Virus record (IMG/VR): IMGVR_UViG_2778261300_000004
Coordinates: 1-21,891 of that record
Strand: one strand, 5' to 3'
DNA from: a virus
Taxonomy: Duplodnaviria > Heunggongvirae > Uroviricota > Caudoviricetes
Length of the DNA stretch: 21,891 nucleotides
Shown: positions 3,243 to 20,931 of the stretch, piece after piece
How the letters are laid out: each line of letters begins with the position of its first letter
Numbering within the stretch: position 1 is the stretch's first letter
Notes under the pieces: generated by a model
Seen by the model: only the letters and a program-made list of their open reading frames with translations
Databases searched by the model: none
Told to the model about the DNA's origin: nothing
Position numbers and translations under genes: made by a program

Positions 3243-3245
3243 ATA

Positions 3246-7028: not shown

Positions 7029-7045
7029 ATCACCTTTCAGGTGAT
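7029..7045. promoter_or_regulatory. 17-bp inverted repeat A-TCACC-N5-GGTGA-T, a variant of the operator-like motif
   Basis: atcacctttcaggtgat in the divergent tailspike / SOS-gene intergenic region; same architecture as the TTACC-N5-GGTAA sites. Confidence 0.35.
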
Positions 7046-7081
7046 TTGCAAAACGTGCTGGATAGCAAATAAATTATTTGA

Positions 7082-7101
7082 TACTGTATATTCATACAGT
7101 T
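7082..7101. promoter_or_regulatory. LexA (SOS) box
   Basis: TACTGTATATTCATACAGTT matches the CTGT-N8-ACAG consensus with both arms intact (about 17/20 to TACTGTATATATATACAGTA); 20 bp upstream of ATG 7121. Confidence 0.65.
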
Positions 7102-7120
7102 ATTGCATGGAGAAGATAAG

Positions 7121-7378
7121 ATGCAGCAGTATCACTATCCACTGGAAAACGGATTTACCGAAAAGATTCACACGCCGGGAGGCGTCAGATCACTGGTGGA
7201 GGGATCGCACTTGATGAAATTACTCCGGGATCTCGATAAAGATGGATTTAATGTCGATGGTCCACTTGCCGAACTGACTGCACTGATTAACTACGTCACC
7301 AGCTCACAGATGTCTATGCAGGATCTGCAAACACATCTCGACTATTGTGCCGAACAATTACGAAAACAAACCCGGTAA
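7121..7378 (+). CDS. Small SOS-regulated protein of unknown function (candidate antirepressor or SOS-induced accessory factor)
   Basis: ATG 7121 with GGAGAAG RBS (track start is an upstream TTG at 7103); 85 aa, acidic and soluble; LexA box at its promoter; a hairpin follows. Confidence 0.5.
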   Translation: MQQYHYPLENGFTEKIHTPGGVRSLVEGSHLMKLLRDLDKDGFNVDGPLAELTALINYVTSSQMSMQDLQTHLDYCAEQLRKQTR

Positions 7379-7385
7379 ATTTAAA

Positions 7386-7401
7386 GGCCGCAAGAGCGGC
7401 C
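7386..7401. terminator. Hairpin between convergent genes (terminator-like)
   Basis: ggccgc / aaga / gcggcc; T-rich tract on the minus strand side, weaker on +. Confidence 0.4.
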
Positions 7402-7402
7402 T

Positions 7403-7414
7403 GTGACATGTCAC
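7403..7414. repeat. 12-bp perfect palindrome GTGACATGTCAC, copy 1 of 2
   Basis: Read directly; an identical copy lies at 13756-13767. Confidence 0.8.
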
Positions 7415-7421
7415 GCTCACG

Positions 7422-7562
7422 TTATGACAAGCCTATGTACCCTGCTACACCAGATAATATCAAAACAACTGCAACAGCAAATTCGCCATCGTGAATGATA
7501 CATTTACGGTTCATAACGCCAAGTGCAACAAGCGCAAACACAACAAGAATAAAAGCAATCAT
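7422..7562 (-). CDS. 46-aa hydrophobic membrane peptide (below the ORF-track cutoff)
   Basis: ATG 7562 with AGGATGAG RBS 10 nt after the 750-aa gene stop; MIAFILVVFALVALGVMNRKCIIHDGEFAVAVVLILSGVAGYIGLS gives two hydrophobic segments; stop at 7422-7424. Confidence 0.4.
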   Translation of the reverse strand: MIAFILVVFALVALGVMNRKCIIHDGEFAVAVVLILSGVAGYIGLS

Positions 7563-7571
7563 TTCTCATCC

Positions 7572-9824: not shown

Positions 9825-9835
9825 ACGACGTTTCT

Positions 9836-10090
9836 TTAATGCCGCTTCACCATGTCAGAAAACTCAAGGCGGAGATCAGCATCTTTAGGCATCGGAATAC
9901 CTTTCGCGTCATCAGTACCTTTACGAGCCGCCGCGCCAGCAAGAATTGTCTGCGCAGCGGTTTCAGGAGACACGGAAACATCCGGATTAAACCAGTTTTT
10001 TTCTGCCAAAATACCACCTGGCTTATCCATCAGTATCCCGGCAACGGCAGCAGATGGAGCGTTGGCACTGATCTGCTGTAGTGCTGACAT
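9836..10090 (-). CDS. Short ORF, probably the C-terminal remnant of a truncated upstream virion gene
   Basis: 84 aa from ATG 10090; stop 12 nt before the 750-aa gene start; nothing phage-structural lies upstream of it, only the tRNA island. Confidence 0.3.
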   Translation of the reverse strand: MSALQQISANAPSAAVAGILMDKPGGILAEKNWFNPDVSVSPETAAQTILAGAAARKGTDDAKGIPMPKDADLRLEFSDMVKRH

Positions 10091-10343
10091 ATACACCTGC
10101 CCACCACCAGTGCTCTGCCTGATGGTAGCGGTCTGGATACGTTTAAGGGGCACCCTCCCTTGCTCGGGCAAACGAACCAGGTAGCCGGAATGTGCAAGTC
10201 GAGCGGTTTTATTCCGCGCACGGGGATTCACCATCCCGGCGATTCGGTGTGACACCTCGGAAGAGACGAGGGTGCAACGATGAGAGCATTTATGGAGCCG
10301 CGACAAAGTGTGGTGCCTTAACAGGCTAAGTGCTCTCAGCGTT

Positions 10344-10420
10344 GTGGCATTAGCTCAGTTGGACAGAGCAACCGCCTTCTAAGCGGTTGGTCGCAGGTTC
10401 GAATCCTGCATGCCACGCCA
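10344..10420 (+). tRNA. tRNA-Arg, anticodon UCU (reads AGA/AGG)
   Basis: Cloverleaf folded by hand: 7-bp acceptor stem GTGGCAT/ATGCCAC, D-arm GCTC..GAGC, anticodon stem ACCGC/GCGGT with loop CTTCTAA, T-arm GCAGG TTCGAAT CCTGC, discriminator G and encoded CCA. Confidence 0.9.
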
Positions 10421-10463
10421 GAATCACGCCTAAGGACCGTGATGCCAGAAGTTCCAGGTGCTT

Positions 10464-10506
10464 GGCGGTGATGGTTTCCCTTGAAGGACTACCACCGCCC
10501 TTTTTA
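10464..10506 (+). terminator. Hairpin plus T-run after the tRNA (terminator-like)
   Basis: ggcggtg ... caccgcc arms followed by CTTTTTACA. Confidence 0.35.
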
Positions 10507-10583
10507 CAGCAGGACGCCATTGCGATGACTTCATGCTGTAAACCCGTACAGCCACGGAAGGCATAACTCATTGCTTCCAGTTC

Positions 10584-10608
10584 GCCCACTTCAGTGGGCT
10601 TTTTTTTC
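10584..10608 (+). terminator. Rho-independent terminator
   Basis: gcccac / ttca / gtgggc followed by T8. Confidence 0.7.
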
Positions 10609-10620
10609 TAGTGACTACTG

Positions 10621-10637
10621 ATTACCTTATGGGTAAT
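10621..10637. promoter_or_regulatory. Operator-like inverted repeat A-TTACC-N5-GGTAA-T in the promoter region of the AT-rich gene
   Basis: attaccttatgggtaat, perfect arms; overlaps a candidate -10 TAATAT (10634-10639) about 30 bp upstream of ATG 10669. Confidence 0.5.
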
Positions 10638-10668
10638 ATGCTGCAAACAAATAACACAAGGCCGTGAC

Positions 10669-11487
10669 ATGCTTGACTTCATCCGTGACATTTACTCCTC
10701 TTTCCGCCAAGCATCTCTTGAGCGGGTGAAAAGCCCGTTCCTTGGGGCATTTGTTTTTTCCTGGCTTTGCTTTAATTGGCAGATGTTAGCAATTCTATTT
10801 TTTAGTTCTAAGGATATTGAAAAGCGCCTTGCTATTATTAATGGCTCTTTCGGCATCGTCAGCTTTTTAATTGCGCCAATATGCACTACAGCATTGATAG
10901 TTATCCTTTTACCGCAAATTAATAAATTAATTACAATAATACAAGATAAACCTAACTCAGACACAATTGAAATGAGCCTTGCATCTAAAATAAAGATCGC
11001 CGAACTGCAGCAACTATTAGCAGAAAATGAAGCAAGAAAGAAACTTGCTGATAAAAAAGAAGAACGCTTCATTGAAGAGAATATTATTTCAATAAAAAAA
11101 GACCATGAAAAAGCAATAGATAACCTTAAAGACAAAGAAAGTAAAATCTCAAATCTCACGGACACAATAACTGAACTTCAGAGCAAACTGGTTAAAGCTG
11201 AGGCCACTCTCAAAGTTGAACAGGAGTCAAGATCCCAAGTGCAGAATGAATTGATTATTGAAAAAGAGAACAAGCGGAAATTAGAAGACAACATTCTGCA
11301 CCTTAATTTAAGTTTAAAAAAAAACCAATCAGAATTGGCCATTGCAAAAGAAGCCTATGATAATACCTTGATGGCTTATAATGAACTTAACACAACATTA
11401 AAAAAAGCAGAAAGCTCAATAATAAACTTCAACGCTAACTTTCCTTTTTTAACTGACATAAATAACAGCACCCCAAATACATACTAA
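10669..11487 (+). CDS. AT-rich moron: protein with two N-terminal TM helices and a long coiled coil (candidate exclusion, abortive-infection or host-takeover factor)
   Basis: 272 aa; two N-terminal hydrophobic segments then a K/E/L/N-rich heptad-like region; composition much more AT-rich than flanking phage genes; opposite strand to neighbours; own promoter-like and terminator-like signals. Confidence 0.55.
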   Translation: MLDFIRDIYSSFRQASLERVKSPFLGAFVFSWLCFNWQMLAILFFSSKDIEKRLAIINGSFGIVSFLIAPICTTALIVILLPQINKLITIIQDKPNSDTIEMSLASKIKIAELQQLLAENEARKKLADKKEERFIEENIISIKKDHEKAIDNLKDKESKISNLTDTITELQSKLVKAEATLKVEQESRSQVQNELIIEKENKRKLEDNILHLNLSLKKNQSELAIAKEAYDNTLMAYNELNTTLKKAESSIINFNANFPFLTDINNSTPNTY

Positions 11488-11582
11488 AAAAAAAATAAAA
11501 ATGCATGGGAGCATTTAGTTAGTTTAAATTTAAGTCTAAAGGAGAAAATACAAAAATAAATAACCAATCCACTATGGCATAT

Positions 11583-13052
11583 TTACTCATACGGGTCATA
11601 ATCTATTATAGCCTTACCCTGCTGCTGGCGCGGATCATTAAGTTTTTTTGTGACCGGAAAAGCAAACGTCAGCAGTAGCGCATCGCCTTTACCCGGCGAA
11701 CGCCCAAGCCGCTCCTTGATATCTTCCTTCGGTTCGATAACGATTTTACCGTCCACGCGAACTTTGTACTCTGCCGCCGACAGGTCGTCCGCTGTTTCCT
11801 GGTCATCCAGCATGCCGCCCAGCCTCAGCCATGTCTTGCATGAGTTGAACATCTCCCCACGCTTGTTAAGCATCTGCGGGTCAGTGGACGCACCGCCGAA
11901 CGGAACAAGTTGCCATGTACGTCCCCAGCCATCACCGATTGACTTCAGACCAGTTCCGTAACCGAAGTCGATGAACACTGCGTCAGCCTGGTACTGGTCT
12001 TCAAAGTCAGCGATATGCTTCGCCATAATCAGATCGTCAGTGGTCTTGTTGCCAGTCCACAGCACCTTACTGTGCAGCCCCTGCCGCAGGTATATCACAG
12101 CGTCATCAACGCCGGAGTATGCCGGGTCAACGCCGATTATCACCGGTGCATGTGCCACCTGCGCAGCAGTTACCACCCGTTTCATTGCCTCGTCAGTAAG
12201 ACCGGTAGGGATAAACTGCAATTCAGATGCATCAGGGAATATGCCGCGCACACGGATTTTAACGAAGTCGCTGTCTTCCCCGTAGTCATCAACCCATTTC
12301 TGCAATTGCTGCTTGTTAGTACCTTCCACCGTCCGGCTGTCAATCTGCGCAGTTTTCCAGCGGTGTTTATATTTGCGGAAACATTCACGGAAACGTCCGG
12401 TATTACGCGTCGGGTTTCCGAACGCCACCCAGATAATCTCAGTGTCTTCGTCCGTAAGCGCACCCTCAGCAACTTCCCACACCAGATCCGCAATGTTCGA
12501 CGCTTCATCGAATACCACGATGATGCGTTTGCGCTCGTTGTGTAGTCCGGCGAATGCCTCAGTGTTGTGCTCAGACCAGGGGATTGCGTCAGCTCGCCAC
12601 CGCTTGTCGTGCCCAGGATCATTGCTGTACATCGCAGTAGCGGTACAGGTAAACCAGTCTTTCGTGATAGCAAGGTTCGACCACTTGATAATTTCCGGCC
12701 AGGTCTTCGTTCGTAGCTGGTTGTCGGTGTTGGCGGTCACCACGACCTTACAATCCTCGCAAGTGGACATGCCCCAGTTGATCAGCATTGAGATGAGTGC
12801 TGATTTACCAATACCGTGACCCGAAGCACGTGCCAGCATAAGCGGCTGATAGCGCGTCTCGGGATTCTGCAGGTGATCACGTATCTCTCGGAACGCATCG
12901 GCCTGCCACTGACGTGGGCCGGAAGCATGTGCCAGTTCAGTCCCCTCTTCCCCCCACGGGAACGCATAGAGGGCATAGCCAAGCGGATCGTGAGTGAACC
13001 CTGCAATATCCTCGATCAACTGCTCTTCAGGAGATAACGCTGCATCTGTCAC
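11583..13052 (-). CDS. terL: Terminase large subunit
   Basis: 489 aa; Walker A-like SGHGIGKS; GTG start overlaps the terS stop (GTGA). Confidence 0.8.
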   Translation of the reverse strand: MTDAALSPEEQLIEDIAGFTHDPLGYALYAFPWGEEGTELAHASGPRQWQADAFREIRDHLQNPETRYQPLMLARASGHGIGKSALISMLINWGMSTCEDCKVVVTANTDNQLRTKTWPEIIKWSNLAITKDWFTCTATAMYSNDPGHDKRWRADAIPWSEHNTEAFAGLHNERKRIIVVFDEASNIADLVWEVAEGALTDEDTEIIWVAFGNPTRNTGRFRECFRKYKHRWKTAQIDSRTVEGTNKQQLQKWVDDYGEDSDFVKIRVRGIFPDASELQFIPTGLTDEAMKRVVTAAQVAHAPVIIGVDPAYSGVDDAVIYLRQGLHSKVLWTGNKTTDDLIMAKHIADFEDQYQADAVFIDFGYGTGLKSIGDGWGRTWQLVPFGGASTDPQMLNKRGEMFNSCKTWLRLGGMLDDQETADDLSAAEYKVRVDGKIVIEPKEDIKERLGRSPGKGDALLLTFAFPVTKKLNDPRQQQGKAIIDYDPYE

Positions 13053-13645
13053 TGATTGCCATCCTGACGTTCTTTCAGTCTCTTCCTGGCTGCTGCTATG
13101 CGATCAGCAATTGTCACATTCACATTAACATCCATGCGTTCTTTGAACGCGTTGACGTCGACGTGCTTACCAATCAGTTCGAGGTTCTTCACCTTGTCAG
13201 GCCATTTAATTTTTTTGAGGATTGTCTCTATCGAATCCTCGTTCATGTTCATGATGGTCGATGACAGATCAAAGCCGCTAAGCGTAGTGCGCCAGATTTT
13301 CGGCCACTCGCGGATTGGCTTAAGGCTCCCATCGTCGTTGAGGATATCAATCACGTCCATCTGGTCGATCTCCACCAGGCGCATGAGAACGTAATCGGCA
13401 CTGACGCGCATTCGTTTGTTGCGCTCCTCCATCAACTCGGCAATCCGTTTTTGAATGCGTTCATCGCGCATCATGACACTGGCTTTAACTGCCGCTGTAT
13501 TTGGGGAGAATCCTGCGTTAATCGCTGCCTGAGTCTGGTTTTCAGGCGTTTTGATGTATGACTGGCAATAAGCCTCCTGCATTGCTGTTAGTGGCTTAAA
13601 TTGCGTTGATTTGCGTTTATAGGTTTTAGGTTCAGCAGACATCAT
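13049..13645 (-). CDS. terS: Terminase small subunit
   Basis: Most likely start is the ATG-ATG at 13645 (MMSAEPKTYKRK...); the track ORF begins at an upstream TTG (13723); basic helical protein directly before and coupled to terL. Confidence 0.65.
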   Translation of the reverse strand: MMSAEPKTYKRKSTQFKPLTAMQEAYCQSYIKTPENQTQAAINAGFSPNTAAVKASVMMRDERIQKRIAELMEERNKRMRVSADYVLMRLVEIDQMDVIDILNDDGSLKPIREWPKIWRTTLSGFDLSSTIMNMNEDSIETILKKIKWPDKVKNLELIGKHVDVNAFKERMDVNVNVTIADRIAAARKRLKERQDGNQ

Positions 13646-13755
13646 AACCACCGTGGTAATAGTTACCGTTGTGGTAATAGTACCATGCAAAATAAAGCCG
13701 CCATAGTTGGCGGCAGTATTCAAAACCCGTCAAATTCATCATGCATAATCTACTC

Positions 13756-13767
13756 GTGACATGTCAC
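13756..13767. repeat. 12-bp perfect palindrome GTGACATGTCAC, copy 2 of 2
   Basis: Read directly; overlaps the stop codon of the 13764-14111 gene, just upstream of terS. Confidence 0.8.
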
Positions 13768-14111
13768 ACTATTAATTTCGTTTCATGCCAGCCTTTAGTC
13801 ACCCAGCATTGCGAGTCACCATTACACGGGCATGAATTAACTGGAACTCTCTCGCCGCACTTACCGCAACGTTTTCTGCTGATCGATTTTATACGCCCGC
13901 GCACACGTGCATCATCCTGGCGGATCAGCAGCGCGATGTACTCGGCCATTTCATAGGGATCGCGACCAGGGCGCCGGGCGGCGCAGTTCCGCGCTAGCAT
14001 TTCCTGCTCCTGCTTATCCAGCACCAGTTCAATTTTGCGCTCACCGGCGGCGGACTGCCGAGCGCGCTGCGCGGCTTTGCGTTCTGCGGGGGATTTAGCC
14101 ACGAATCGCAC
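13764..14111 (-). CDS. Small basic protein with Cys-rich C-terminus (possible zinc-binding regulator)
   Basis: Track ORF with GTG start; a second GTG with GGAG RBS three codons in; C-terminal CGKCG...CPCNGDSQC cysteine cluster. Confidence 0.4.
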   Translation of the reverse strand: MRFVAKSPAERKAAQRARQSAAGERKIELVLDKQEQEMLARNCAARRPGRDPYEMAEYIALLIRQDDARVRGRIKSISRKRCGKCGERVPVNSCPCNGDSQCWVTKGWHETKLIV

Positions 14112-14216
14112 TCCACGCCAGATTGATTAATGACTCCCAGGTAATATAAACCCGGATACCAGCAGCCAGGCCGAAACCAATCACCATGGCATAAAGCAGA
14201 GCGTTGCACTTGTTCA

Positions 14217-14762
14217 TCACTTCACCTCCTGCGGCGGCTCCGGTAGCGGCATCCAGTGTGACGGCTCACATACCCCCTCAACACCATTCATGTAAAAGAA
14301 TTGAAATAACCCTTTACCTTTGTGAAACCCTACCATCTGCTCTTTTGTGTCTGAGCAATAAACCAAAACATCTTCTTCGCTTGGCATTCGCTCACTACAG
14401 CTTATCCAACCATCCGGAGTTACCGGAGAGTTGCTATTTACATCGAAGTTTGGCTCTGCGTCCTGAACCAGGAGGATGTAACCATTCTTGGCTGTATCAA
14501 GTTCTAACGCCTCGGTGACGGTGCCGAAATAGCGATTACCTAAATCAGCATCACAAGTGCTTACATCAATGGAAACTTCCATGCCTTCGATTAATTCTGG
14601 CAAGTTGTAAGTTTGGTTTACAGGCTCTGCTTCCAGCGATGCCAGAGCAATTCGTGCCAGTTCTTCCGCTTCTTCTGCTGGCAGTACAACGTTGCTACCA
14701 GGTCCGTATGTTTCGCGCCACTGCTTGATTGTCAGCAGTCGCTCTTTGGTAATAGTGGTCAT
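14217..14762 (-). CDS. Phage accessory protein, DUF551-like C-terminus
   Basis: Start taken at ATG 14762 (MTTITKERLL...) with strong GGAG RBS; C-terminal ...CEPSHWMPLPEPP resembles the DUF551 family as recalled. Confidence 0.5.
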   Translation of the reverse strand: MTTITKERLLTIKQWRETYGPGSNVVLPAEEAEELARIALASLEAEPVNQTYNLPELIEGMEVSIDVSTCDADLGNRYFGTVTEALELDTAKNGYILLVQDAEPNFDVNSNSPVTPDGWISCSERMPSEEDVLVYCSDTKEQMVGFHKGKGLFQFFYMNGVEGVCEPSHWMPLPEPPQEVK

Positions 14763-14763
14763 A

Positions 14764-15276
14764 TCACTCTCCTTTGATGCGAATGCCAGTAGCGCGGATT
14801 GCATCGATGACTTCAGAAACTTTGTATGCCATTACCGTTTGGTAATCATCGTGAAAATCTGTTCGATGAAGCATGCTGCTACGTTCCGGGAGCAGTATTT
14901 CCCGCGCTTCCAGTTCTGCAATGCGCTTACCTCCATCCGCGATTACTCCATCGTAATACTCACGCTGCTCGTTGAGTTTTGATTTTGCTGCTTCAAGCTC
15001 AACACGCAGTTTCCCTACCGTTAGCGCAATTTCCTCGTTCTCCTGGTCGCGGCGTTTGATGTATTGCTGGTTTCTTTCCCGTTCATCCAGCAGCGCCAGC
15101 ACGGTTTCTGGTCCGGTCAGAAATTTGAAGGCGTTGAGCGCATCAATATCCACACCGTAATCTTTAAGTTCCTGTTCACTTAACAAATCATCATCAACTG
15201 GCAACATTAACAGGCGTTCCATTGCTGGAGTTGCACGTTCTGCCGCCTCACGCAGTACCTGATAGTCAATTGTCAT
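14764..15276 (-). CDS. Acidic coiled-coil protein (Ea22-like?)
   Basis: ATG 15276 with GGGTGG RBS; stop and next start nearly abut. Confidence 0.45.
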   Translation of the reverse strand: MTIDYQVLREAAERATPAMERLLMLPVDDDLLSEQELKDYGVDIDALNAFKFLTGPETVLALLDERERNQQYIKRRDQENEEIALTVGKLRVELEAAKSKLNEQREYYDGVIADGGKRIAELEAREILLPERSSMLHRTDFHDDYQTVMAYKVSEVIDAIRATGIRIKGE

Positions 15277-15917
15277 TCTCGCCACCCTTCACAGTTGTAA
15301 TCACTACAGCCTTCAAAATCATATGGGCTGTACTGCCAGGTTATTTTTCCGCAATGCGGACAATTCCAACGCACCTTCCCGCTTCGCGACTTCTTTCTTC
15401 TGTTCTGCTCTTTCAACCAGTCAGGCATGACCAAACCTGCGCCCTGAACCATTGTTCTGCGGTTAAATTTATTGATATTGAACGTCCGGCGCTTTGCTGA
15501 ATCAGCAATGGAAAATGGCAACCAAACTATTCCTGGTTCGTTTTTGTTGGCGACGCTAAAGATGGTCGCTTTACTGAAGTCATCTGTTGGCAATCCACCG
15601 TGTTGAAGCCAGTAAACATCGTTGCCGTTCCAGCTACCTTTTTTGTAGGCCACATACGCAGTGCAATCTGGCTCAATCAGGTTTTCTGTAGGGATGTACT
15701 GGCAATCAACGTGCCACACAGCCATTGCATCCACGCTATCAGCGCAAACAGGCTGATCGATATCTCGACCACAATTCCAGGCTTTTTGGGCTTCTTCCAG
15801 CGTGTAAACATGAGCGCGATCGATATTAGAACTGTAACCATTGCCGTTATGGCAATGGAATGAAGCGTTATTACCCACAGTTTCACGCAAGCACATCATG
15901 TAAAAGCGGTTATTCAC
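15273..15917 (-). CDS. Hypothetical phage protein with C-terminal Cys cluster
   Basis: GTG start overlapping the upstream stop (GTGA); C-terminal CPHCG...C...C motif. Confidence 0.45.
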   Translation of the reverse strand: MNNRFYMMCLRETVGNNASFHCHNGNGYSSNIDRAHVYTLEEAQKAWNCGRDIDQPVCADSVDAMAVWHVDCQYIPTENLIEPDCTAYVAYKKGSWNGNDVYWLQHGGLPTDDFSKATIFSVANKNEPGIVWLPFSIADSAKRRTFNINKFNRRTMVQGAGLVMPDWLKEQNRRKKSRSGKVRWNCPHCGKITWQYSPYDFEGCSDYNCEGWRE

Positions 15918-16477
15918 TGGATGACTCCTTTACGAAGCTGTTCAGCGATATCTTCGAGAACGCCATCAGAGAATGAGCGGTCAAAATCTCCTTCCGGCAC
16001 ATTAGCCATAAAATCAGTAGAGGTAAGAATCATCCGGGCAATATCCTCGGCGTTCTTCGCAGTATCATCAATAAAACCAGCTTTCCAGGCAGCCAACATT
16101 CTGTTCGCCACAAAGTAAGCCCCTTCCTTGCGTGCTTCAGTCTTCATTTCATCCAAGAAAGCATCGGTCGCAGGAGTGGTTTTTTGTGGTGATATGGCGA
16201 TACGAATTGTTTCAAGAGCTGGATCTGTTTCCACTGTTGGCACCTTGATAAAACCAAGCTGCACGCCATTCATAATGAACGTGCGGCGATCCTCACATAT
16301 CGCCTTCAGTCTCGCATTCTCCGCAGCCAGCACCGAAAACTTCTCGTGTGCCAACTTAACAGCCGCATCAGCCTGCTTAATTGACTCAATCGCTTTCTGC
16401 TGGTCTTCGGCCAGCGCATTAGCACGCTCCAGTTGCACTTCCAGTTGCGTTGCCAAATCGCTGATTCCATGGTGCAC
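15914..16477 (-). CDS. Hypothetical protein with N-terminal coiled coil; true start uncertain
   Basis: Track ORF from GTG 16477; N-terminal region overlaps a second frame that carries a small zinc-ribbon-like ORF. Confidence 0.4.
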   Translation of the reverse strand: MHHGISDLATQLEVQLERANALAEDQQKAIESIKQADAAVKLAHEKFSVLAAENARLKAICEDRRTFIMNGVQLGFIKVPTVETDPALETIRIAISPQKTTPATDAFLDEMKTEARKEGAYFVANRMLAAWKAGFIDDTAKNAEDIARMILTSTDFMANVPEGDFDRSFSDGVLEDIAEQLRKGVIQ

Positions 16478-16596
16478 TCAACACAGTGTCCGTTGTAAAC
16501 CCAGCGTTCACTGTCATGTCCGTGCTTACATGGTTTTCCGGTGTAGTAGCGTTTAAGTCCGCGCTTTGCGGCATCAATACGTGTAATGATTTCCAT
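16471..16596 (-). CDS. Small zinc-ribbon-like ORF; 3' end unresolved
   Basis: ATG 16596 (MEIITRIDAAKRGLKRYYTGKPCKHGHDSERWVYNGHCVEC); its frame has no stop until 16306 and becomes Arg/Trp-rich where it overlaps the coiled-coil frame. Confidence 0.25.
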
Positions 16597-16705
16597 GGTA
16601 AGTACTGTTATTAGTATTGGGATTACGGTTATTTTGTGCTGACACAAAAAAAAGATCAACCAGATTTGGTTTTTTATTACCTTTGAGGTGCGAATAGATA
16701 TGAAA

Positions 16706-16725
16706 AGACCGCCGGATGGCGGTCT
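16706..16725 (-). terminator. Hairpin terminator about 20 nt after the Cro-like gene
   Basis: agaccgcc / ggat / ggcggtct followed on the minus strand by TTTTCATATCT. Confidence 0.4.
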
Positions 16726-16746
16726 ACAGAGGGTTGTGGCTGGATA

Positions 16747-16977
16747 TCATGAGTAGAAGAAGTATGCCAGTTCTGCTTTTGAGCGCAGCCATTGTCTTGT
16801 TTTACAGGCTTTAAAAAGCCCATTCATCAATACCTTACCTGGCATTTTGCGCTTACCTGTTAAGTGAGTCTGGATATAGTGACTCGTCGTTCCGGCTTCC
16901 TGTGCGAAGGCTTCACGCTCATCCGGAGTAAGTGCAAGCCAGTGCTTTTTGAAATCGAAATGTCCGTTATCGCTCAT
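16747..16977 (-). CDS. Cro-like small HTH regulator (YdaS/Cro-type)
   Basis: 76 aa, ATG 16977; HTH-like segment TTSHYIQTHLTGKRKMP; divergent from the repressor gene across an operator-bearing intergenic region. Confidence 0.5.
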   Translation of the reverse strand: MSDNGHFDFKKHWLALTPDEREAFAQEAGTTSHYIQTHLTGKRKMPGKVLMNGLFKACKTRQWLRSKAELAYFFYS

Positions 16978-17012
16978 AGCTATTGCCTGATATTTATTTC
17001 AGATAATAAATA

Positions 17013-17077
17013 TTCACCCATAAGGTAACAAAAATCAAGGATAGTTACCCATGGGGTGCATTTACCTGTTGGGTAAT
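17013..17077. promoter_or_regulatory. Immunity-region operator cluster: three 17-bp sites of the form (A/T)-T(T/C)ACC-N5-GGTAA-(T/C)
   Basis: 17013-17029 ttcacccataaggtaac; 17044-17060 gttacccatggggtgca (weaker right arm); 17061-17077 tttacctgttgggtaat; all between the Cro-like and repressor starts. Confidence 0.5.
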
Positions 17078-17131
17078 ATTGCTTTAAATTGAATCATCTA
17101 CTGATTCATATATGAGGCGATTTTCCAGAAA

Positions 17132-17716
17132 ATGAAAAGTATCCAGGACGTCCGCAGGCAAAATCTCAACGACTTGATCGACCGTGAATTCAATGGTGTT
17201 CAGACGCGGATGGCAGAAAAACTTGGAACTCAGGCAAATCTGGTAAACCGCTGGGCTCTTGGCAAGAAGGTTATCGGCGATCAGGTTGCGCGAAAAATTG
17301 AAGCTGCCGCCAATAAACCCCGTAACTGGCTTGATATCGATCGCTCTCTTTCTCAGGAAGGTTTTCAGCCTGTCGGCCCAAGCGACATTGGTCAGCTGGC
17401 GGCTCACAACCTGGAGCGCTGGATGAGCGAAAGCCGCGACCTTTCAACACAGGGAAAACTTCACCGCGCATCCGGCGTAGCCCAGGTGACAATCAGCCGC
17501 CTGTTAAACAATGAGGTCAGCGTTTCCATTTCCACCCTGGAGAATGTTGCATCCGCATTCGGGCGTCATGGCTATGAATTACTGATTCACCCGCACGACC
17601 CTGCGACCATCAACTATGACCGCTCGCGCTACGCATTGTTACCCGAAACCGAGAAAGCAAAGATCGAAAGTTACATTGAATTTGTCATCAACCAGAACGA
17701 AAAAAACAAACAATAA
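17132..17716 (+). CDS. Prophage repressor candidate with two HTH (XRE-type) domains and no recognisable peptidase/autocleavage domain
   Basis: 194 aa; HTH-like segments around residues 25-45 and 110-130; no S24-like Ser/Lys motif region seen by eye; followed by a strong terminator. Confidence 0.55.
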   Translation: MKSIQDVRRQNLNDLIDREFNGVQTRMAEKLGTQANLVNRWALGKKVIGDQVARKIEAAANKPRNWLDIDRSLSQEGFQPVGPSDIGQLAAHNLERWMSESRDLSTQGKLHRASGVAQVTISRLLNNEVSVSISTLENVASAFGRHGYELLIHPHDPATINYDRSRYALLPETEKAKIESYIEFVINQNEKNKQ

Positions 17717-17736
17717 AATCATATTTTTCAGTAAGT

Positions 17737-17762
17737 AAGCCGCCTTCTGGCGGCTTTTTTTA
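17737..17762 (+). terminator. Rho-independent terminator after the repressor gene
   Basis: aagccgcc / ttct / ggcggctt followed by T7. Confidence 0.7.
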
Positions 17763-17773
17763 TTGTCTATACG

Positions 17774-17790
17774 ATTACCTGACGGGTAAT
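17774..17790. promoter_or_regulatory. Operator site (perfect arms) upstream of the early-operon promoter
   Basis: attacctgacgggtaat. Confidence 0.5.
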
Positions 17791-17808
17791 TTTTTTAACT
17801 CATATCTA

Positions 17809-17836
17809 TTGACATCAAACCAAATACGCATAATCA
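17809..17836 (+). promoter_or_regulatory. Candidate sigma70 promoter of the + strand early operon
   Basis: Perfect -35 TTGACA (17809-17814); -10 candidate TAATCA 16 bp downstream; bracketed by two operator sites. Confidence 0.4.
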
Positions 17837-17852
17837 TTACCTCAACGGTAAC
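17836..17852. promoter_or_regulatory. Operator site overlapping the -10 / start region
   Basis: attacctcaacggtaac. Confidence 0.5.
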
Positions 17853-17870: not shown

Positions 17871-18022
17871 ATGCAGTGGAAAATCATCAACGGTTGGTAC
17901 TGCGTTACTGCATGCGGATTCATGAGCTGGAAGTTCCGCACCTTACAGGAAGGCATTAAGTGGGCTTTCGTCAGCAAAGAAGCTCGCGATGTGGCCAACG
18001 ATAACGAGATATGGGAGGGCTG
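17871..18022 (+). CDS. 49-aa Trp/Cys-containing small protein, first gene of the operator-controlled operon (below the ORF-track cutoff)
   Basis: ATG 17871 with GAGG 8 nt upstream; MQWKIINGWYCVTACGFMSWKFRTLQEGIKWAFVSKEARDVANDNEIWEG. Confidence 0.35.
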
Positions 18023-18025
18023 ATA

Positions 18026-18325
18026 ATGAACGTTAATCAGCAGAAAAATCTTCAAAAAATCATGCTGGCATTCGACAAGGACTACCGCCTGTCAGAACAG
18101 CTATATGACCGACAAGTTGAACTGATTGAGAGTATCCGGCTTCATCAACTGGCCTCAACTTTCGACGTTGTAACAGGCAAAGGTGTTCGCCAGGAAGTGC
18201 TGGAAGCAGCTAAAGACAGCCCTGAGTTCGAAGAACTGATGGATTCCTACCGGCGCGAGGCAATGGCAATTATCGCCCGCTGGGATCTGGCTGATCAGAT
18301 TGATGGGCAGAGGGACGCGGCATGA
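18026..18325 (+). CDS. Hypothetical early protein
   Basis: ATG 18026 with GGAGGG RBS (track start 18011 is in-frame upstream); stop overlaps the next start (ATGA). Confidence 0.45.
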   Translation: MNVNQQKNLQKIMLAFDKDYRLSEQLYDRQVELIESIRLHQLASTFDVVTGKGVRQEVLEAAKDSPEFEELMDSYRREAMAIIARWDLADQIDGQRDAA

Positions 18326-18528
18326 AACCAACGCTCCTCTCATTGCTGCGAGGTGGAAAACACAGCATCCGAGATATGGCAAAGATTCTTGGTATCTCAA
18401 AATCGAAGGTTTCTTGGTTCATCGCTGAGCTTGAACGTCGCAAATGGGTAAAGGTGACCAGGTGCGCAATATATTTCCACGATGGAACCCGTTCCAACAA
18501 GCAGAACGAATACAAGGTTAAGTTATGA
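18322..18528 (+). CDS. Small basic HTH-like protein
   Basis: 68 aa; segment IRDMAKILGISKSKVSWFIAELERRKW resembles a winged-helix/HTH; coupled to both neighbours. Confidence 0.45.
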   Translation: MKPTLLSLLRGGKHSIRDMAKILGISKSKVSWFIAELERRKWVKVTRCAIYFHDGTRSNKQNEYKVKL

Positions 18529-19346
18529 ATACTGGCATCTATTTCGATATCAGCAACGAGGATTACCACGCCGGTGACGGCGTGAGCAAGTCGCAGCTAG
18601 ATATGGTGGCTAAGAACCCTGCCCTCCTGAAATGGGTTCAGGCAGCACCAGAAGACGAAGAGAAAAAGTCTGCACTGGATATGGGAACCGCATTGCACTG
18701 TCTGCTTCTGGAGCCTAGAGAGTTCGACAAACGCTTCATTGTTTCACCGAAATTCGATCGTCGGACGAAACAAGGTAAAGCTGACGAAGAGGCATTTCTT
18801 CGTGATGTGGCGGATATGGGGATTTCGGTACTTGATGCAGAGCAGTGGCGGAAACTGGAGCTGATGCGTGATAGCGCAATGGCTCACCCGGCGGCACGCT
18901 GGATGTTGGAAGCACCTGGTTACTGCGAAGCATCAATGTACTGGAACGATGAAGAGACTGGTGAGTTGTGCCGCATTCGTCCAGACAAATGGCTGAACGA
19001 GCACAACGTGATCGTCGACGTGAAAAAGGTTGCAGATATGGACCGTTTTGCACGCCACATCGAGGAATTCCGCTACCACGTGCAGGACGCAATGTACCGC
19101 GAAGGCGCAATGAGGGTTACTGGTCAGCCGCATGGTTTTTTCTTTCTTGCCGTGAGCGAAAGCATTGATTGTGGTCGGTATCCGGTACGCGTGTTCGAGC
19201 TGGATGCGCCGGATGTCGATGCCGGGCACGCTCTGTTCCGCCGGGATCTGAATACCTATCACGAATGCCGCATCAACGATGAATGGGGCGGAGTGGAAAT
19301 TATTAAACGCCCTGACTGGGCACGTAAACAGGATATGTATGTATGA
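18525..19346 (+). CDS. PD-(D/E)XK exonuclease of the phage recombination module (RecE-C-terminal-like)
   Basis: Motifs consistent with the PD-(D/E)XK fold: IRPD, IVDVKK (D-x-K), QDAMY; stop overlaps the recombinase start. Confidence 0.6.
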   Translation: MNTGIYFDISNEDYHAGDGVSKSQLDMVAKNPALLKWVQAAPEDEEKKSALDMGTALHCLLLEPREFDKRFIVSPKFDRRTKQGKADEEAFLRDVADMGISVLDAEQWRKLELMRDSAMAHPAARWMLEAPGYCEASMYWNDEETGELCRIRPDKWLNEHNVIVDVKKVADMDRFARHIEEFRYHVQDAMYREGAMRVTGQPHGFFFLAVSESIDCGRYPVRVFELDAPDVDAGHALFRRDLNTYHECRINDEWGGVEIIKRPDWARKQDMYV

Positions 19347-20224
19347 GCAATGATATCGCAATCACATCACAACCAGGCGCAACTGTAGGCACTGCTGCGG
19401 CAATCTTCAGCCCCGAGGGCATGAATCAACTGGTGCGTTTCGCGGAGTTGATGTCACAAAGCAAAGCGACTGTACCGAAACATCTTGAAGGCAAACCTGC
19501 CGATTGCCTGGCGGTGACCATGCAGGCGACACAGTGGGGAATGAACCCGTTCGCCGTGGCGCAGAAAACGCATGTGGTAAACGGAACGTTAGGCTACGAA
19601 GCACAGTTGGTAAACGCGGTCGTATCCTCTTCCAGCCTGCTGGCGACACGCCTGAATTATCGCTGGAGCGGTGACTGGTCGAATGTTAACGGCAAAACAG
19701 ATAAATCACCGAATCTGACGGTAACTGTGTCAGCAGTTCTTAAAGGAGAAGCAGAACCACGTGAGCTTACCATCAGTATGGCGCAAGCCGGAGTGCGTAA
19801 CTCTCCATTGTGGGAACAGGATCCGCGCCAGCAGCTTGCCTATCTTTGCACGAAACGATGGGCTCGCCTGCACGCTCCTGATGTACTTCTCGGTGTTTAC
19901 ACCCCTGACGAATTACAGGAAACGGCACCGCGCGTTGAACGAGACATTACTCCGCAAACAACTACGGCTGCGGGAATGAATAGTCTGATCAACGCTAAAA
20001 CAGTGAAAAAGCCTGATGAGCAAACGCGTAAAGCGGATAGCCGTGATCCAGAAGAAATGCTGATGGCCTTTACCAGCGCAGCGATGAATTACAGCACTGT
20101 CTCCGAACTGGATAAGGCTTACAAATACATTGCACAAAAACTTTCAGATGATGACGAACTGCTGGCAAAAGCCACCGACGTTTACAGCGTTCGTCGGGAA
20201 GAATTAAACGAAACATCTATGTAA
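19343..20224 (+). CDS. Single-strand annealing recombinase, Red-beta/RecT superfamily (Bet-like)
   Basis: Segments resembling lambda Bet as recalled (QWGMNPF..., ERDITPQ); paired with the exonuclease. Confidence 0.65.
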   Translation: MSNDIAITSQPGATVGTAAAIFSPEGMNQLVRFAELMSQSKATVPKHLEGKPADCLAVTMQATQWGMNPFAVAQKTHVVNGTLGYEAQLVNAVVSSSSLLATRLNYRWSGDWSNVNGKTDKSPNLTVTVSAVLKGEAEPRELTISMAQAGVRNSPLWEQDPRQQLAYLCTKRWARLHAPDVLLGVYTPDELQETAPRVERDITPQTTTAAGMNSLINAKTVKKPDEQTRKADSRDPEEMLMAFTSAAMNYSTVSELDKAYKYIAQKLSDDDELLAKATDVYSVRREELNETSM

Positions 20225-20273
20225 CCACCACCGCGGCGCCACGCGCGCCGCACTGCAACCAAGAGAGGTATTT

Positions 20274-20522
20274 ATGAAAGGTGCATTAGGTAAGAAGGAA
20301 CTCCTGGCGGTGGTGCCACTGTCATGGAGCACTATCGACCGTATGGAGCGCGCAGGGGAATTTCCTAAACGCTGGTACATCACCGATAAACGCTGCGCAT
20401 GGAACCGTGATGAAGTTGAGCGTTGGCTTGATGAACGTCAGGCAGCAAGCCCGGCAGAGTTCCAGGGTAAAAAGCCTCCTGTTCAGCGACGTGTATATCG
20501 TCCTGTGAGCAACGCTGCATGA
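20274..20522 (+). CDS. alpA: AlpA-family regulator / excisionase-like protein
   Basis: AGAGAGG RBS; ...STIDRMERAGEFPKRWYI... matches the AlpA signature (AGEFPK) as recalled; lies next to the integrase. Confidence 0.65.
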   Translation: MKGALGKKELLAVVPLSWSTIDRMERAGEFPKRWYITDKRCAWNRDEVERWLDERQAASPAEFQGKKPPVQRRVYRPVSNAA

Positions 20523-20631
20523 GTGTGCTGCTAAGACACTGGAGCAAATGGTCAGGATGGTACTTATTCCTGGCCTCTGTTTCAGCATGGCTTTATCTGC
20601 TGGCATTAATTTTCAGAGAGGGTTGGATTAA

Positions 20632-20931
20632 GTGAGAAAGTTAAGCCGACTTGAAAAATATCACATGAACAAGGTTTCAATGCGCAGCCCTTCAAAGGTT
20701 GTTTCCGTTACTCCTGCGGCGATAGAGATCGAAAAACGCGCGATTGAAAGAGAGAAAAAAGGGCAGTTCCGCATTGCCGCTCACCTTTGGCTTCAGTGTA
20801 TGGATGTTGCTTCTGGTGATGTTGAGCGTGCAAGGATCGCGGTTCGCAGGGACCAATGTATCACAAAAGGTAACGGCCTTCGCCGTGGCGACTATAGCGG
20901 AATAGGATGTTGTGGGGTGGTTTATGACTAA
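20632..20931 (+). CDS. PerC-like transcriptional activator (start uncertain; ATG 20665 is more likely than GTG 20632)
   Basis: ...AAHLWLQCMDVASGDVERARIAVRRDQC... resembles the PerC family pattern as recalled. Confidence 0.45.
   Translation: MRKLSRLEKYHMNKVSMRSPSKVVSVTPAAIEIEKRAIEREKKGQFRIAAHLWLQCMDVASGDVERARIAVRRDQCITKGNGLRRGDYSGIGCCGVVYD

What the first reader, a model, noticed from the sequence alone, without database searches (positions are those of the whole stretch)
17013..17852. Recurrent operator-like inverted repeat A-TTACC-N5-GGTAA-T defines a putative repressor regulon
Three adjacent sites lie between the divergent Cro-like and repressor genes, and two perfect sites bracket a TTGACA promoter ahead of the exonuclease/recombinase operon. 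One further perfect site lies far away at 10621-10637 in front of the AT-rich 2TM gene, and a TCACC/GGTGA variant lies at 7029-7045 ahead of the SOS-box gene. Perfect 17-bp copies at scattered promoters are unlikely by chance and suggest one repressor coordinates the early operon and at least one distant accessory gene.
Basis: seen in the sequence. Interest (0 to 1): 0.55.

Follow-up and report, generated by a model that had tools for sequence, protein, structure and literature searches.

The report
Known repressor operators of phiV10-like prophage
The repeated A-TTACC-N5-GGTAA-T palindrome is real and far from chance, but it is the operator set already annotated for the epsilon15/phiV10/SPC32H group of temperate phages, here carried by a partly deleted E. 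coli prophage, so it is an ordinary finding that was read correctly.

Summary
The window has five perfect TTACC-N5-GGTAA sites against 0.02 expected (P about 5e-11), plus weaker copies at positions that carry sites in related phages.

The window is a phiV10-like (Uetakevirus) prophage. Its 194-aa repressor is identical to phiV10 gp40 and homologous along its whole length to the Salmonella phage SPC32H Rep (PDB 5D50). The "SOS-box gene" is the SPC32H-type antirepressor Ant.

The same core sits at the same intergenic positions in phiV10, epsilon15, SPC32H, Tyrion, a Klebsiella phage and a complete E. coli prophage. The epsilon15 GenBank record already labels these sites as repressor binding sites. 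The regulon reading is therefore supported, but it is not new.

- A conserved module of operator, -35, -10 and operator spans 62 bp.
- Operators travel with inserted accessory-gene cassettes.
- The TTACC half-site follows the repressor's N-terminal domain into Pseudomonas-type phages. There the repressor has an S24 peptidase C-terminal domain and the spacer is N4 instead of N5.

Binding to these exact sites was not shown in anything I could read.

The parts
17132..17716 (+). Repressor gene (Rep; identical to phiV10 gp40). N-terminal DNA-binding domain about aa 1-72; C-terminal domain homologous to the SPC32H Rep dimerisation and Ant-binding part.
   Evidence: 100% identical to phiV10 gp40. 5D50_A E 4e-42 over residues 1-190. 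Pfam HTH_3 at 106-147 and no S24 peptidase domain.
16747..16977 (-). Cro-like gene (76 aa), divergent from rep.
   Evidence: phrog_35 'transcriptional repressor', E 5.6e-13. 58-84% identical to the gene at the same position in Tyrion, BUCT711, epsilon15 and SPC32H, with an invariant GTTSHYIQ.HLT segment.
17061..17077 (.). OR site nearest rep, TTTACCTGTTGGGTAAT (core perfect).
   Evidence: Aligned with perfect sites in all relatives.
17044..17060 (.). Middle OR site, GTTACCCATGGGGTGCA (2 core mismatches), abutting the previous site at a 17-bp period.
   Evidence: Aligns with perfect sites of epsilon15, SPC32H and BUCT711.
17013..17029 (.). OR site nearest cro, TTCACCCATAAGGTAAC (1 core mismatch, TCACC half-site). 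It lies inside the predicted leftward promoter.
   Evidence: Predicted promoter TTGTTA 17031-17026 / TATTAT 17008-17003 on the minus strand. A one-mismatch site at this position in every lineage.
17737..17756 (+). Intrinsic terminator after rep.
17774..17790 (.). PL distal operator, ATTACCTGACGGGTAAT, ending 18 bp upstream of the -35.
17809..17837 (+). Predicted PL promoter: TTGACA, 17-nt spacer, AATCAT.
   Evidence: 10 of 12 consensus matches. TATTGAC (the -35 hexamer lacking its last base, plus two bases 5' of it) is invariant in five lineages.
17836..17852 (.). PL proximal operator, ATTACCTCAACGGTAAC. It overlaps the end of the -10 and the expected start site, and lies 62 bp centre to centre from the distal site.
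17871..20931 (+). Early-left operon: two small ORFs, a 68-aa ORF, PD-(D/E)XK exonuclease, RecT, AlpA-like HTH protein and PerC-like regulator.
   Evidence: ORFs. PGAP annotation of the 98-99% identical E. coli prophage. phrog_898 and phrog_856.
16676..16692 (.). Decayed site, ATTACCTTTGAGGTGCG (2 core mismatches), just downstream of the cro terminator (16706-16725, minus strand).
   Evidence: One-mismatch sites lie at the same offset of 337 bp from the nearest OR site in phiV10, Tyrion and E275a.
13644..13678 (.). Two adjacent operators, ATTACCACAACGGTAAC (13678-13662) and ATTACCACGGTGGTTAT (13660-13644), read on the minus strand, 18 bp apart. They lie between a terminator (13714-13697) and the terS start (ATG 13642).
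   Evidence: The same pair precedes terS in phiV10, epsilon15, Tyrion and E275a; SPC32H keeps only the distal site within 1 core mismatch. Tyrion's annotated RBS and start codon follow the pair.
13049..13642 (-). Small terminase gene, followed by large terminase 11583-13052 on the minus strand.
10621..10637 (.). Perfect operator, ATTACCTTATGGGTAAT, in front of the accessory ORF. A weak candidate promoter GTGACT-17-TAATAT would place it over the spacer and -10 (my reading, below the scan threshold).
   Evidence: An identical site and cassette occur in the complete prophage of E. coli E275a.
10669..11487 (+). AT-rich accessory ORF (272 aa): two N-terminal hydrophobic segments, then a long charged region that looks coiled-coil by eye. 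Function unknown.
   Evidence: 34.6% GC against 47.1% for the window, with hydropathy peaks. phrog_13369 E 7e-132. No Pfam match, and PADLOC only LmuB at E 0.0084. Present in 41 E. coli genomes, 30 of them at 80% coverage or more.
7029..7045 (.). Symmetric weak variant, ATCACCTTTCAGGTGAT, in the divergent region between the tail-fibre gene and ant. It abuts a candidate ant -35 (TTGCAA 7047-7052).
   Evidence: Aligned with perfect sites of epsilon15, SPC32H and BUCT711 and one-mismatch sites of phiV10 and E275a.
7084..7099 (.). LexA box, CTGTATATTCATACAG.
   Evidence: Its CTGT/ACAG arms are almost fully conserved in all six genomes (BUCT711 lacks the first C).
7121..7378 (+). Antirepressor gene ant (85 aa), the inducer arm of the switch.
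   Evidence: 5D50_E 'Anti-repressor protein', E 2.3e-46. phrog_450.

Best explanation
The 17-bp palindromes are the operators of the prophage repressor Rep (17132-17716), an SPC32H/epsilon15-type repressor.

Inferred mechanism:
- Pairs of Rep N-terminal helix-turn-helix domains each read one TTACC half-site of a palindrome. Because Rep is a tetramer with two such pairs, one tetramer can hold two operators.
- This would explain why the important promoters carry paired sites. The pairs either abut (17-18 bp, at OR and before terS) or bracket a promoter at 62 bp, about six helical turns (at PL, and at a second early/middle promoter in complete relatives).
- At PL the proximal site covers the -10 and start site, and the distal site lies just upstream of the -35.
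- At the rightward switch one site lies inside the cro promoter, and the strong site lies next to rep.
- Single sites sit before the accessory AT-rich ORF and in the ant/tail-fibre region.

In a lysogen Rep would silence all these units at once. Rep has no autocleavage domain. On DNA damage, loss of LexA from the box at 7084-7099 lets the small antirepressor Ant be made, and Ant strips Rep from DNA.

Shown here: the sites exist, are non-random, are intergenic and are conserved by position, and Rep and Ant are homologues of the solved SPC32H proteins. Inferred: that Rep binds these very sites, the looping, and the direction of regulation at each single site.
For: Non-randomness and location:
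- 5 perfect sites against 0.02 expected.
- 0 perfect sites in 100 kb of control E. coli DNA.
- In epsilon15, 11 of 11 perfect sites lie in the 6.6% of the genome that is non-coding (P 1e-13). In phiV10 it is 7 of 8.

Link to Rep:
- Rep is identical to phiV10 gp40.
- The identical protein in ZX5 cuts holin transcription by 99.97% when overexpressed (PMC9782041).
- Full-length homology to SPC32H Rep, and the Ant homologue is about 88% identical.
- SPC32H Rep binds palindromic sites as a tetramer and is removed by tetrameric Ant (PMC9638917).
- The epsilon15 GenBank record marks the same motif as repressor binding sites.

Conservation:
- Half-sites and the -35 are invariant while spacers and flanks drift.
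- The 62-bp module is conserved in all lineages.
- The Rep N-terminal domain is more conserved than the C-terminal domain (53-90% against 39-75%), with an invariant NLVNRW segment.

Out-group:
- 20 Pseudomonas-type phage loci share only the N-terminal domain; their C-terminal domain is an S24 peptidase.
- They carry 57 TTACC-N4-GGTAA sites flanking the repressor gene and none with any other spacing.
- In the one locus examined (PseuP_224), the divergent 76-aa ORF shows no similarity to the window's Cro-like protein.
Against: - I could not obtain direct binding data for these sites. The primary papers were not held (Kropinski 2007; Kim and Ryu 2013; Kim et al. 2016).
- The rep promoter could not be identified.
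- The terS pair and the post-cro site follow terminators with no recognisable sigma-70 promoter, so occlusion and roadblock cannot be told apart there.
- The promoters of the AT-rich ORF and of ant are below the scan threshold.
- The Cro-like protein is also conserved across the genus and may read the same sites.
- This prophage is partly deleted, so some sites may be relics.
Confidence: 0.85

Rival explanations
1. The palindromes are read mainly by the Cro-like protein (16747-16977), or by both Cro-like and Rep as in lambda, rather than being Rep-specific operators.
For: The Cro-like gene is divergent from rep across the three OR sites. It falls in a PHROG family annotated as transcriptional repressors. 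Its putative HTH is invariant across the genus, as the half-sites are.
Against: In the out-group phage PseuP_224, only the repressor N-terminal domain is shared with the window, yet the TTACC half-sites are kept. Its divergent 76-aa ORF has no detectable similarity to the window's Cro-like protein. The epsilon15 record assigns the sites to the repressor. Dual reading is compatible with the main explanation. Only the exclusive version is a rival.
Confidence: 0.05
2. The sites are inherited relics in a decaying prophage. The motif once defined a regulon, but in this element it no longer coordinates anything useful.
For: Against phiV10 the window lacks the DNA matching phiV10 3147-14351, 14636-17059 and 19524-20542. 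These segments hold the portal, capsid and most virion genes and the Bro-N gene. The second 62-bp module and the portal, lysis and Bro-proximal sites are absent. Sites 7029 and 16676 each carry one more core mismatch than in phiV10 and E275a.
Against: Rep, the Cro-like gene, Ant, the LexA box and the OR/PL operators are intact, and Rep is identical to that of viable phages. Five sites remain perfect. A live repressor still confers immunity and silences PL and the accessory ORF.
Confidence: 0.08
3. The motif is a binding site for another factor (the phage AlpA-like or PerC-like regulator, or a host protein), a promoter element, or a chance recurrence.
For: GGTAAT resembles a -10 hexamer, and several sites overlap predicted -10 regions.
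Against: Strict two-fold symmetry with fixed N5 spacing. 237 perfect N5 sites and a single site at any other spacing (N6) in 80 phiV10-type loci. Clustering in the immunity region. 0 of 100 shuffles give any site. None in 100 kb of control DNA.
Confidence: 0.02

Closest known systems
Epsilon15 gp38 repressor and its annotated binding sites (GenBank AY150271.2; Kropinski et al. 2007, Virology 369:234, paper not readable here)
   Same: Same consensus, ATTACC-N5-GGTAAT. Same genus and gene order. Sites lie at the same places: before terS, in the ant/tailspike region, at PL with 62-bp spacing, and at OR.
   Different: The window's Rep is only 42-43% identical to gp38. The window has two PL sites where epsilon15 has three. 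Its middle OR site is degenerate. It has an extra site on an accessory cassette that epsilon15 lacks. The epsilon15 record itself leaves out its OR sites and the lysis-region site.
Salmonella phage SPC32H Rep-Ant switch (PDB 5D50, 5D4Z; Kim and Ryu 2013; Kim et al. 2016, papers not readable here)
   Same: Full-length Rep homologue and an Ant about 88% identical. LexA box before ant. No S24 domain in Rep. The operator core is the same in SPC32H.
   Different: The Rep C-terminal domain is only 39% identical. Tetramer formation, the trans arrangement of DNA-binding domains and removal by Ant are known for SPC32H (PMC9638917; PMC9986798) and are only inferred here.
Lambda CI/Cro with tripartite OR and OL
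   Same: Divergent repressor and cro genes with three 17-bp two-fold symmetric operators between them. A second operator cluster at the leftward early promoter. Strong and weak sites.
   Different: No RecA-stimulated self-cleavage; induction is through an antirepressor. Operators abut at a 17-bp period or bracket a promoter at 62 bp. Many further sites lie outside the immunity region, and the repressor fold and oligomer differ.
Dispersed-operator repressors: P1 C1 and mycobacteriophage L5 gp71 'stoperators' (from my own knowledge)
   Same: One repressor with about 10-15 sites spread over the whole genome. Some sites lie downstream of terminators and directly before genes, where a roadblock role is conceivable.
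   Different: Those sites are asymmetric and, in L5, depend on orientation. The sites here are palindromic.
S24-peptidase cI repressors of Pseudomonas phage PseuP_224 and 19 IMG/VR relatives
   Same: N-terminal domain 39% identical to the window's Rep (E 1e-12). The same TTACC/GGTAA half-sites flank the repressor gene.
   Different: The spacer is N4, not N5. The C-terminal domain is a LexA-like S24 peptidase. In PseuP_224 the cro-position gene is unrelated.

Membership tests
Uetakevirus (epsilon15/phiV10/SPC32H) Rep-operator-Ant immunity system | Repressor homologous to SPC32H Rep / epsilon15 gp38 over its full length | tested here: met
   5D50_A E 4e-42, query residues 1-190. 42-100% identical to the repressors of the genus.
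Uetakevirus (epsilon15/phiV10/SPC32H) Rep-operator-Ant immunity system | Operator consensus ATTACC-N5-GGTAAT, as annotated for epsilon15 | tested here: met
   Five perfect cores in the window. The seven annotated epsilon15 sites have the same sequence pattern.
Uetakevirus (epsilon15/phiV10/SPC32H) Rep-operator-Ant immunity system | Sites at the same intergenic positions (OR, PL, terS, ant/tail fibre) | tested here: met
   Site maps of six genomes. Alignments A3, A4 and A6.
Uetakevirus (epsilon15/phiV10/SPC32H) Rep-operator-Ant immunity system | Small antirepressor Ant under a LexA box | tested here: met
   5D50_E E 2.3e-46. Perfect LexA box at 7084-7099.
Uetakevirus (epsilon15/phiV10/SPC32H) Rep-operator-Ant immunity system | Repressor lacks an autocleavage (S24) domain | tested here: met
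   Pfam finds only HTH-type families.
Uetakevirus (epsilon15/phiV10/SPC32H) Rep-operator-Ant immunity system | Rep physically binds the palindromes as a tetramer and is released by Ant | not testable with these tools
   Known for SPC32H only, second hand (PMC9638917). Needs EMSA, footprinting or ChIP.
Lambda-type CI/Cro switch | Divergent repressor and cro genes separated by three two-fold symmetric operators | tested here: met
   Sites at 17013, 17044 and 17061 between 16977 and 17132.
Lambda-type CI/Cro switch | Repressor with an S24 peptidase C-terminal domain, cleaved on RecA activation | tested here: not met
   No Peptidase_S24 hit. The C-terminal domain is homologous to SPC32H Rep 92-198 (5D4Z).
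Dispersed asymmetric operators / stoperators (P1 C1, L5 gp71) | Many sites spread over the genome | tested here: met
   8-11 perfect and 4-8 one-mismatch cores per complete genome.
Dispersed asymmetric operators / stoperators (P1 C1, L5 gp71) | Asymmetric, orientation-dependent sites | tested here: not met
   The sites are palindromic.
Dispersed asymmetric operators / stoperators (P1 C1, L5 gp71) | Sites act as elongation roadblocks inside transcription units | tested here: inconclusive
   The terS pair and the post-cro site lie after terminators with no recognisable promoter. No functional data.

The most novel reading that the evidence does not exclude
The TTACC half-site may be a fixed 'reading code' of one repressor N-terminal domain that has been joined to different C-terminal modules. 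With the SPC32H-type tetramerising, Ant-binding domain the spacer is N5, and sites come in abutting or 62-bp looping pairs. With the LexA-like S24 domain the spacer is N4. Because the code does not vary across E. coli, Salmonella, Enterobacter and Klebsiella members of the genus, these phages may be homoimmune at the DNA-recognition level. Accessory cassettes could then plug into the regulon simply by carrying one operator. I found no description of this spacer/domain co-variation or of the plug-in operators in the papers I could search.
Probability: 0.3. Interest if true: 0.35.

Novelty: already known. Interest (0 to 1): 0.17.

Why it matters
For annotation, the result lets the unlabelled palindromes in phiV10-type prophages be marked as Rep operators. 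The 1.5-kb immunity region of this window is present in about 560 of 5426 complete E. coli genomes.

It also corrects two things:
- The likely terS start in phiV10-type records.
- The identity of the true antirepressor, which is the small LexA-controlled Ant and not the Bro-N protein.

For biology, it shows that a partly deleted prophage keeps an intact, SOS-linked repressor circuit that still controls an accessory membrane protein. It also gives a clean natural example of one DNA-reading head used with two operator spacings. None of this changes current understanding of the system.

Tried and rejected
- Reading the primary papers. Kropinski 2007 (PMC2698709), Kim and Ryu 2013 (PMC3807360) and Kim et al. 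2016 (PMC4983836) are not held. A full-text search for the degenerate consensus I recalled found nothing. Searches for operator mapping in phiV10 or Uetakevirus found none.
- The ZX5 paper maps no operators.
- Pfam gave nothing for the Cro-like protein or the AT-rich ORF. PADLOC gave only a sub-threshold LmuB hit for the AT-rich ORF.
- Promoter scans found no sigma-70 match at the ant/tail-fibre region or before the AT-rich ORF, and only a distant one near terS. Promoter assignments there are my own weak readings.
- I could not place the rep promoter.
- An N5 search and an inverted-repeat search in the PseuP_224 locus found nothing convincing. A one-base-shorter spacer then showed the real sites.
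- The first IMG/VR scan returned only identical phiV10-type loci and had to be repeated with the out-group sequence first.
- I considered a CRISPR-like or iteron reading of the repeats. I rejected it because the copies are palindromic, dispersed and at promoters.
- I considered 18562-18578 as a seventh site. I rejected it as not conserved.
Full report
**What the window is**

The 1.5 kb around the finding is 98-99% identical to Escherichia phage phiV10, to its relatives ZX5, phiv142-3 and TL-2011b, and to prophages in about 560 of 5426 complete E. coli genomes. phiV10 belongs to the genus Uetakevirus, together with Salmonella phages epsilon15 and SPC32H. The window is the reverse complement of the phiV10 map.

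A local BLAST against phiV10 shows that the element is a partly deleted prophage.
- Host DNA and the attachment end occupy roughly 1-1163.
- The DNA matching phiV10 3147-14351 and 14636-17059 is missing. This is the portal, capsid and most virion genes.
- The DNA matching phiV10 19524-20542 is missing. This holds the Bro-N 'anti-immunity' gene.
- The replication and nin-like region (about 14100-16460) is replaced by other genes.

**Checking the observation**

An exact search finds five TTACC-N5-GGTAA cores, at 10622, 13663, 17062, 17775 and 17837. None appeared in 100 dinucleotide-preserving shuffles. With the window's base composition the expectation is 0.023 sites, giving a Poisson P of 5e-11 for five or more. 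Allowing up to two mismatches gives 23 matches against 7.5 +/- 2.8 expected.

An independent repeat finder recovers the same family. It also finds that the two weak OR sites resemble each other.

This included an unrelated lambdoid prophage. It holds no perfect core and three one-mismatch cores.

Three points need correcting or adding:
- Only one of the three sites between the cro-like and repressor genes is perfect.

**The proteins**

- The 194-aa product of 17132-17716 is 100% identical to phiV10 gp40.
- It matches the full-length repressor chain of PDB 5D50 (Salmonella phage SPC32H Rep) at E 4e-42 over residues 1-190. It also matches the C-terminal fragment 5D4Z.
- Pfam sees only helix-turn-helix families and no S24 peptidase domain.
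- The identical protein of phage ZX5, when overexpressed, abolished free phage and reduced holin transcription by 99.97% (PMC9782041). That paper did not map operators.
It matches 5D50 chain E, 'Anti-repressor protein', at E 2.3e-46 and about 88% identity.
- This gene is preceded by a perfect LexA box, TACTGTATATTCATACAGT, at 7082-7100.
- Secondary sources state that SPC32H Rep binds palindromic sites as a tetramer. The DNA-binding domain pairs come from different dimers, and tetrameric Ant disassembles the complex (PMC9638917; PMC9986798). They also state that Ant synthesis follows LexA cleavage (PMC7380047).

**Prior knowledge of the motif**

The epsilon15 GenBank record (AY150271.2) carries seven protein_bind features labelled 'repressor / lysogeny'. 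Reading them out gives ATTACC-N5-GGTAAT every time.

The paper behind that record, and the two SPC32H papers, were not available to me. I therefore cannot say which sites were confirmed by experiment.

**Comparative map**

I scanned complete genomes of phiV10, epsilon15, SPC32H, Enterobacter phage Tyrion, Klebsiella phage BUCT711 and the complete prophage of E. coli E275a. Their repressors are 78%, 44% and 43% identical to the window's. All carry 8-11 perfect and 4-8 one-mismatch cores, and these fall at the same places:

| Position | Pattern |
|---|---|
| Directly before terS | A pair 18 bp apart in phiV10, epsilon15, Tyrion and E275a; one site in SPC32H |
| Before the small gene that heads the portal operon | One site |
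| Divergent ant / tail-spike region | One site |
| Before the lysis cassette | One site |
| Before int | One site, always with the same weak GGTATA half |
| PL | A pair 62 bp apart, plus a third site in epsilon15 and SPC32H (an N4 version in BUCT711) |
| Between rep and cro | Three sites, at offsets 0, 17 and 47-48 bp |
| After the cro terminator | One site |
| Before the DUF1064 or RuvC gene, after the replication genes | A second pair 62 bp apart |

In epsilon15 all 11 perfect sites lie in the 6.6% of the genome that is non-coding (P about 1e-13). In phiV10 it is 7 of 8. The eighth lies inside a terS start that is probably annotated too far upstream.

Alignments of the PL, OR, ant and second-module regions show the half-sites and the -35 hexamers invariant while spacers and flanks vary.

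The variant at 7029-7045 aligns with perfect sites in epsilon15, SPC32H and BUCT711. The TCACC half-site recurs at the weak operators of several genomes, so it is a tolerated weak half-site and not noise.

**Anatomy in the window**

*PL.* A predicted promoter, TTGACA (17809-17814), 17-nt spacer, AATCAT (17832-17837), is the best sigma-70 match in the region. The proximal operator (17836-17852) overlaps the end of the -10 and the expected start site. The distal operator (17774-17790) ends 18 bp upstream of the -35. The first gene starts at 17871. The same layout of operator, TTGAnn, 17 nt, -10, operator with 62-bp spacing recurs before the DUF1064 or RuvC gene in every complete relative. It is lost from the window along with the replaced replication module.

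*OR.* Site 17013-17029 lies inside the predicted leftward promoter (TTGTTA 17031-17026, TATTAT 17008-17003). Sites 17044-17060 and 17061-17077 abut each other. I could not place the rep promoter.

*terS.* On the minus strand, a terminator (13714-13697) is followed by the two operators and then immediately by ATG 13642. Epsilon15, SPC32H and Tyrion annotate terS as starting right after the pair. No convincing promoter lies between the terminator and the gene. The pair may therefore block read-through rather than occlude a promoter. This remains open.

*The accessory ORF.* The site at 10621-10637 belongs to a cassette with these parts:
- tRNA-Arg(TCT) at 10344-10420.
- A terminator at 10584-10599.
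- The operator itself.
- A 272-aa ORF of 34.6% GC with two N-terminal hydrophobic segments and a long charged tail.

The ORF matches phrog_13369, of unknown function. The cassette, with the identical operator, is present in 41 E. coli genomes, 30 of them at 80% coverage or more. One of these is the complete E275a prophage. E275a also has operators next to other inserted accessory genes, near a YafO toxin and Bro-N region. Inserted cassettes in this phage group thus come with their own operator.

**Which protein reads the half-site**

Within the genus both Rep and the Cro-like protein are conserved, so conservation alone cannot decide. An out-group helps.

- The cI of Pseudomonas phage PseuP_224 shares only the N-terminal domain with Rep (39% identity over 71 aligned positions (Rep residues 4-68), E 1e-12).
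- Its C-terminal domain is an S24 peptidase.
- The 76-aa ORF at the cro position shows no similarity to the window's Cro-like protein.
- The cI gene is nevertheless flanked by TTACC/GGTAA inverted repeats, with a 4-bp spacer.

A scan of IMG/VR with an alignment of N-terminal domains gave the following counts of perfect sites. Spacers from 2 to 8 bp were tested. Apart from a single N6 site among the phiV10-type loci, none had a spacer other than N4 or N5.

| Lineage | Loci | N5 sites | N4 sites |
|---|---|---|---|
| PseuP-like (S24 C-terminal domain) | 20 | 0 | 57 |
| phiV10-type | 80 | 237 | 0 |
| Klebsiella-type | 60 | 237 | 59 |

In the Klebsiella-type loci nearly all of the N4 sites fall at one position, the third site next to PL.

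The half-site therefore follows the N-terminal domain, and the spacer follows the type of C-terminal domain. This is the strongest computational support available here for the claim that Rep reads the palindromes. It is also the one piece of the analysis that I did not find described in the searchable literature.

**Mechanism and rivals**

The best-supported model is a Rep tetramer holding two operators at once, either abutting or 62 bp apart (5.9 helical turns). It silences PL, the cro promoter, the packaging genes and the accessory ORF, and is relieved by LexA-controlled Ant.

The oligomeric state, the looping and the direction of regulation at single sites are inferred by homology and geometry. 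They were not tested. This includes the site that abuts the candidate ant -35.

Rivals:
- Reading by the Cro-like protein alone, which the out-group makes unlikely.
- A purely vestigial regulon in a decaying prophage. This is possible for the weakened sites, but not for OR and PL, which are intact next to an intact repressor.
- Another factor, a promoter element, or chance, all excluded by the symmetry, the fixed spacing and the statistics.

**Verdict**

The system is already known, so the interest is low. The residual novelty lies in three things: the spacer/domain co-variation, the 62-bp module seen as a possible looping unit, and the operators that travel with accessory cassettes.

Noticed in passing
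window 9845-10130 and 10126-10607 junctions; 7378/7384 junction: The prophage is defective. Against phiV10 it lacks the DNA matching phiV10 3147-14351 (portal to part of p18), 14636-17059 and 19524-20542 (p22 and the Bro-N 'anti-immunity' gene p23). No complete E. coli genome in the collection matches window 1-13800 at 80% coverage or more.
   Followed up: partly
window 14831-14846: A perfect ATTACCAAACGGTAAT, with the same half-sites and flanks but a 4-bp spacer, lies inside the 3' end of an Ead/Ea22-like ORF (14764-15285, minus strand). It is about 70 nt upstream of the likely DUF551 gene start. Expected by chance about 0.001 times per window. It is absent from the other Uetakevirus loci held. 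Unexplained.
   Followed up: partly
window 15840-15856: ATTGCCGTTATGGCAAT is a perfectly symmetric variant of the operator (A to G at the same position of both half-sites). It lies inside ORF 15273-15917 (minus strand) of the replaced replication module.
   Followed up: no
window 13642-13723 (phiV10 41-120): The phiV10-style terS start (a 224-225 aa ORF from a TTG) runs through an intrinsic terminator and both operators. Epsilon15, SPC32H and Tyrion start terS right after the operator pair, and the window has an in-frame ATG at 13642. The longer start is probably an over-extension.
   Followed up: partly
window 10344-10420: A tRNA-Arg(TCT) on the plus strand is also annotated in E. coli prophages and in SPC32H. 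The phiV10 'p04' ORF on the opposite strand overlaps it and may be spurious.
   Followed up: no
L010 2422-2474 and 3297-3336; L091-L110: Pseudomonas-type phages have a cI that shares the Rep N-terminal domain but carries an S24 peptidase C-terminal domain. They use TTACC-N4-GGTAA operators: 57 perfect N4 sites in 20 loci and none at any other spacing.
   Followed up: yes
L006 7262-7275; L111-L170 around position 2267: In the Klebsiella-type lineage the third operator next to PL has a 4-bp spacer (TTACCAAATGGTAA), where epsilon15 and SPC32H have N5. This is a one-base spacer deletion, and an N4 site is present in 58 of 60 loci, nearly always at this position.
   Followed up: partly
window 7121-7378 versus phiV10 p23 / ZX5 ORF4: Records and the ZX5 paper call the Bro-N protein the anti-repressor. 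The homologue of the structurally characterised antirepressor is instead the small LexA-controlled gene (phiV10 p24, annotated 'hypothetical'). The window keeps this gene and has lost the Bro-N gene.
   Followed up: partly
L007 4993-5134 and 6185-6201: In the complete E275a prophage, further operators lie next to inserted accessory genes (a YafO-family toxin cassette and a Bro-N gene). This suggests that cassettes in this region carry their own Rep sites.
   Followed up: no
window 14100-16460: The replication and nin-like module differs from phiV10. It lacks the DUF1064 gene and the second 62-bp operator-promoter module that is conserved in all complete relatives.
   Followed up: partly
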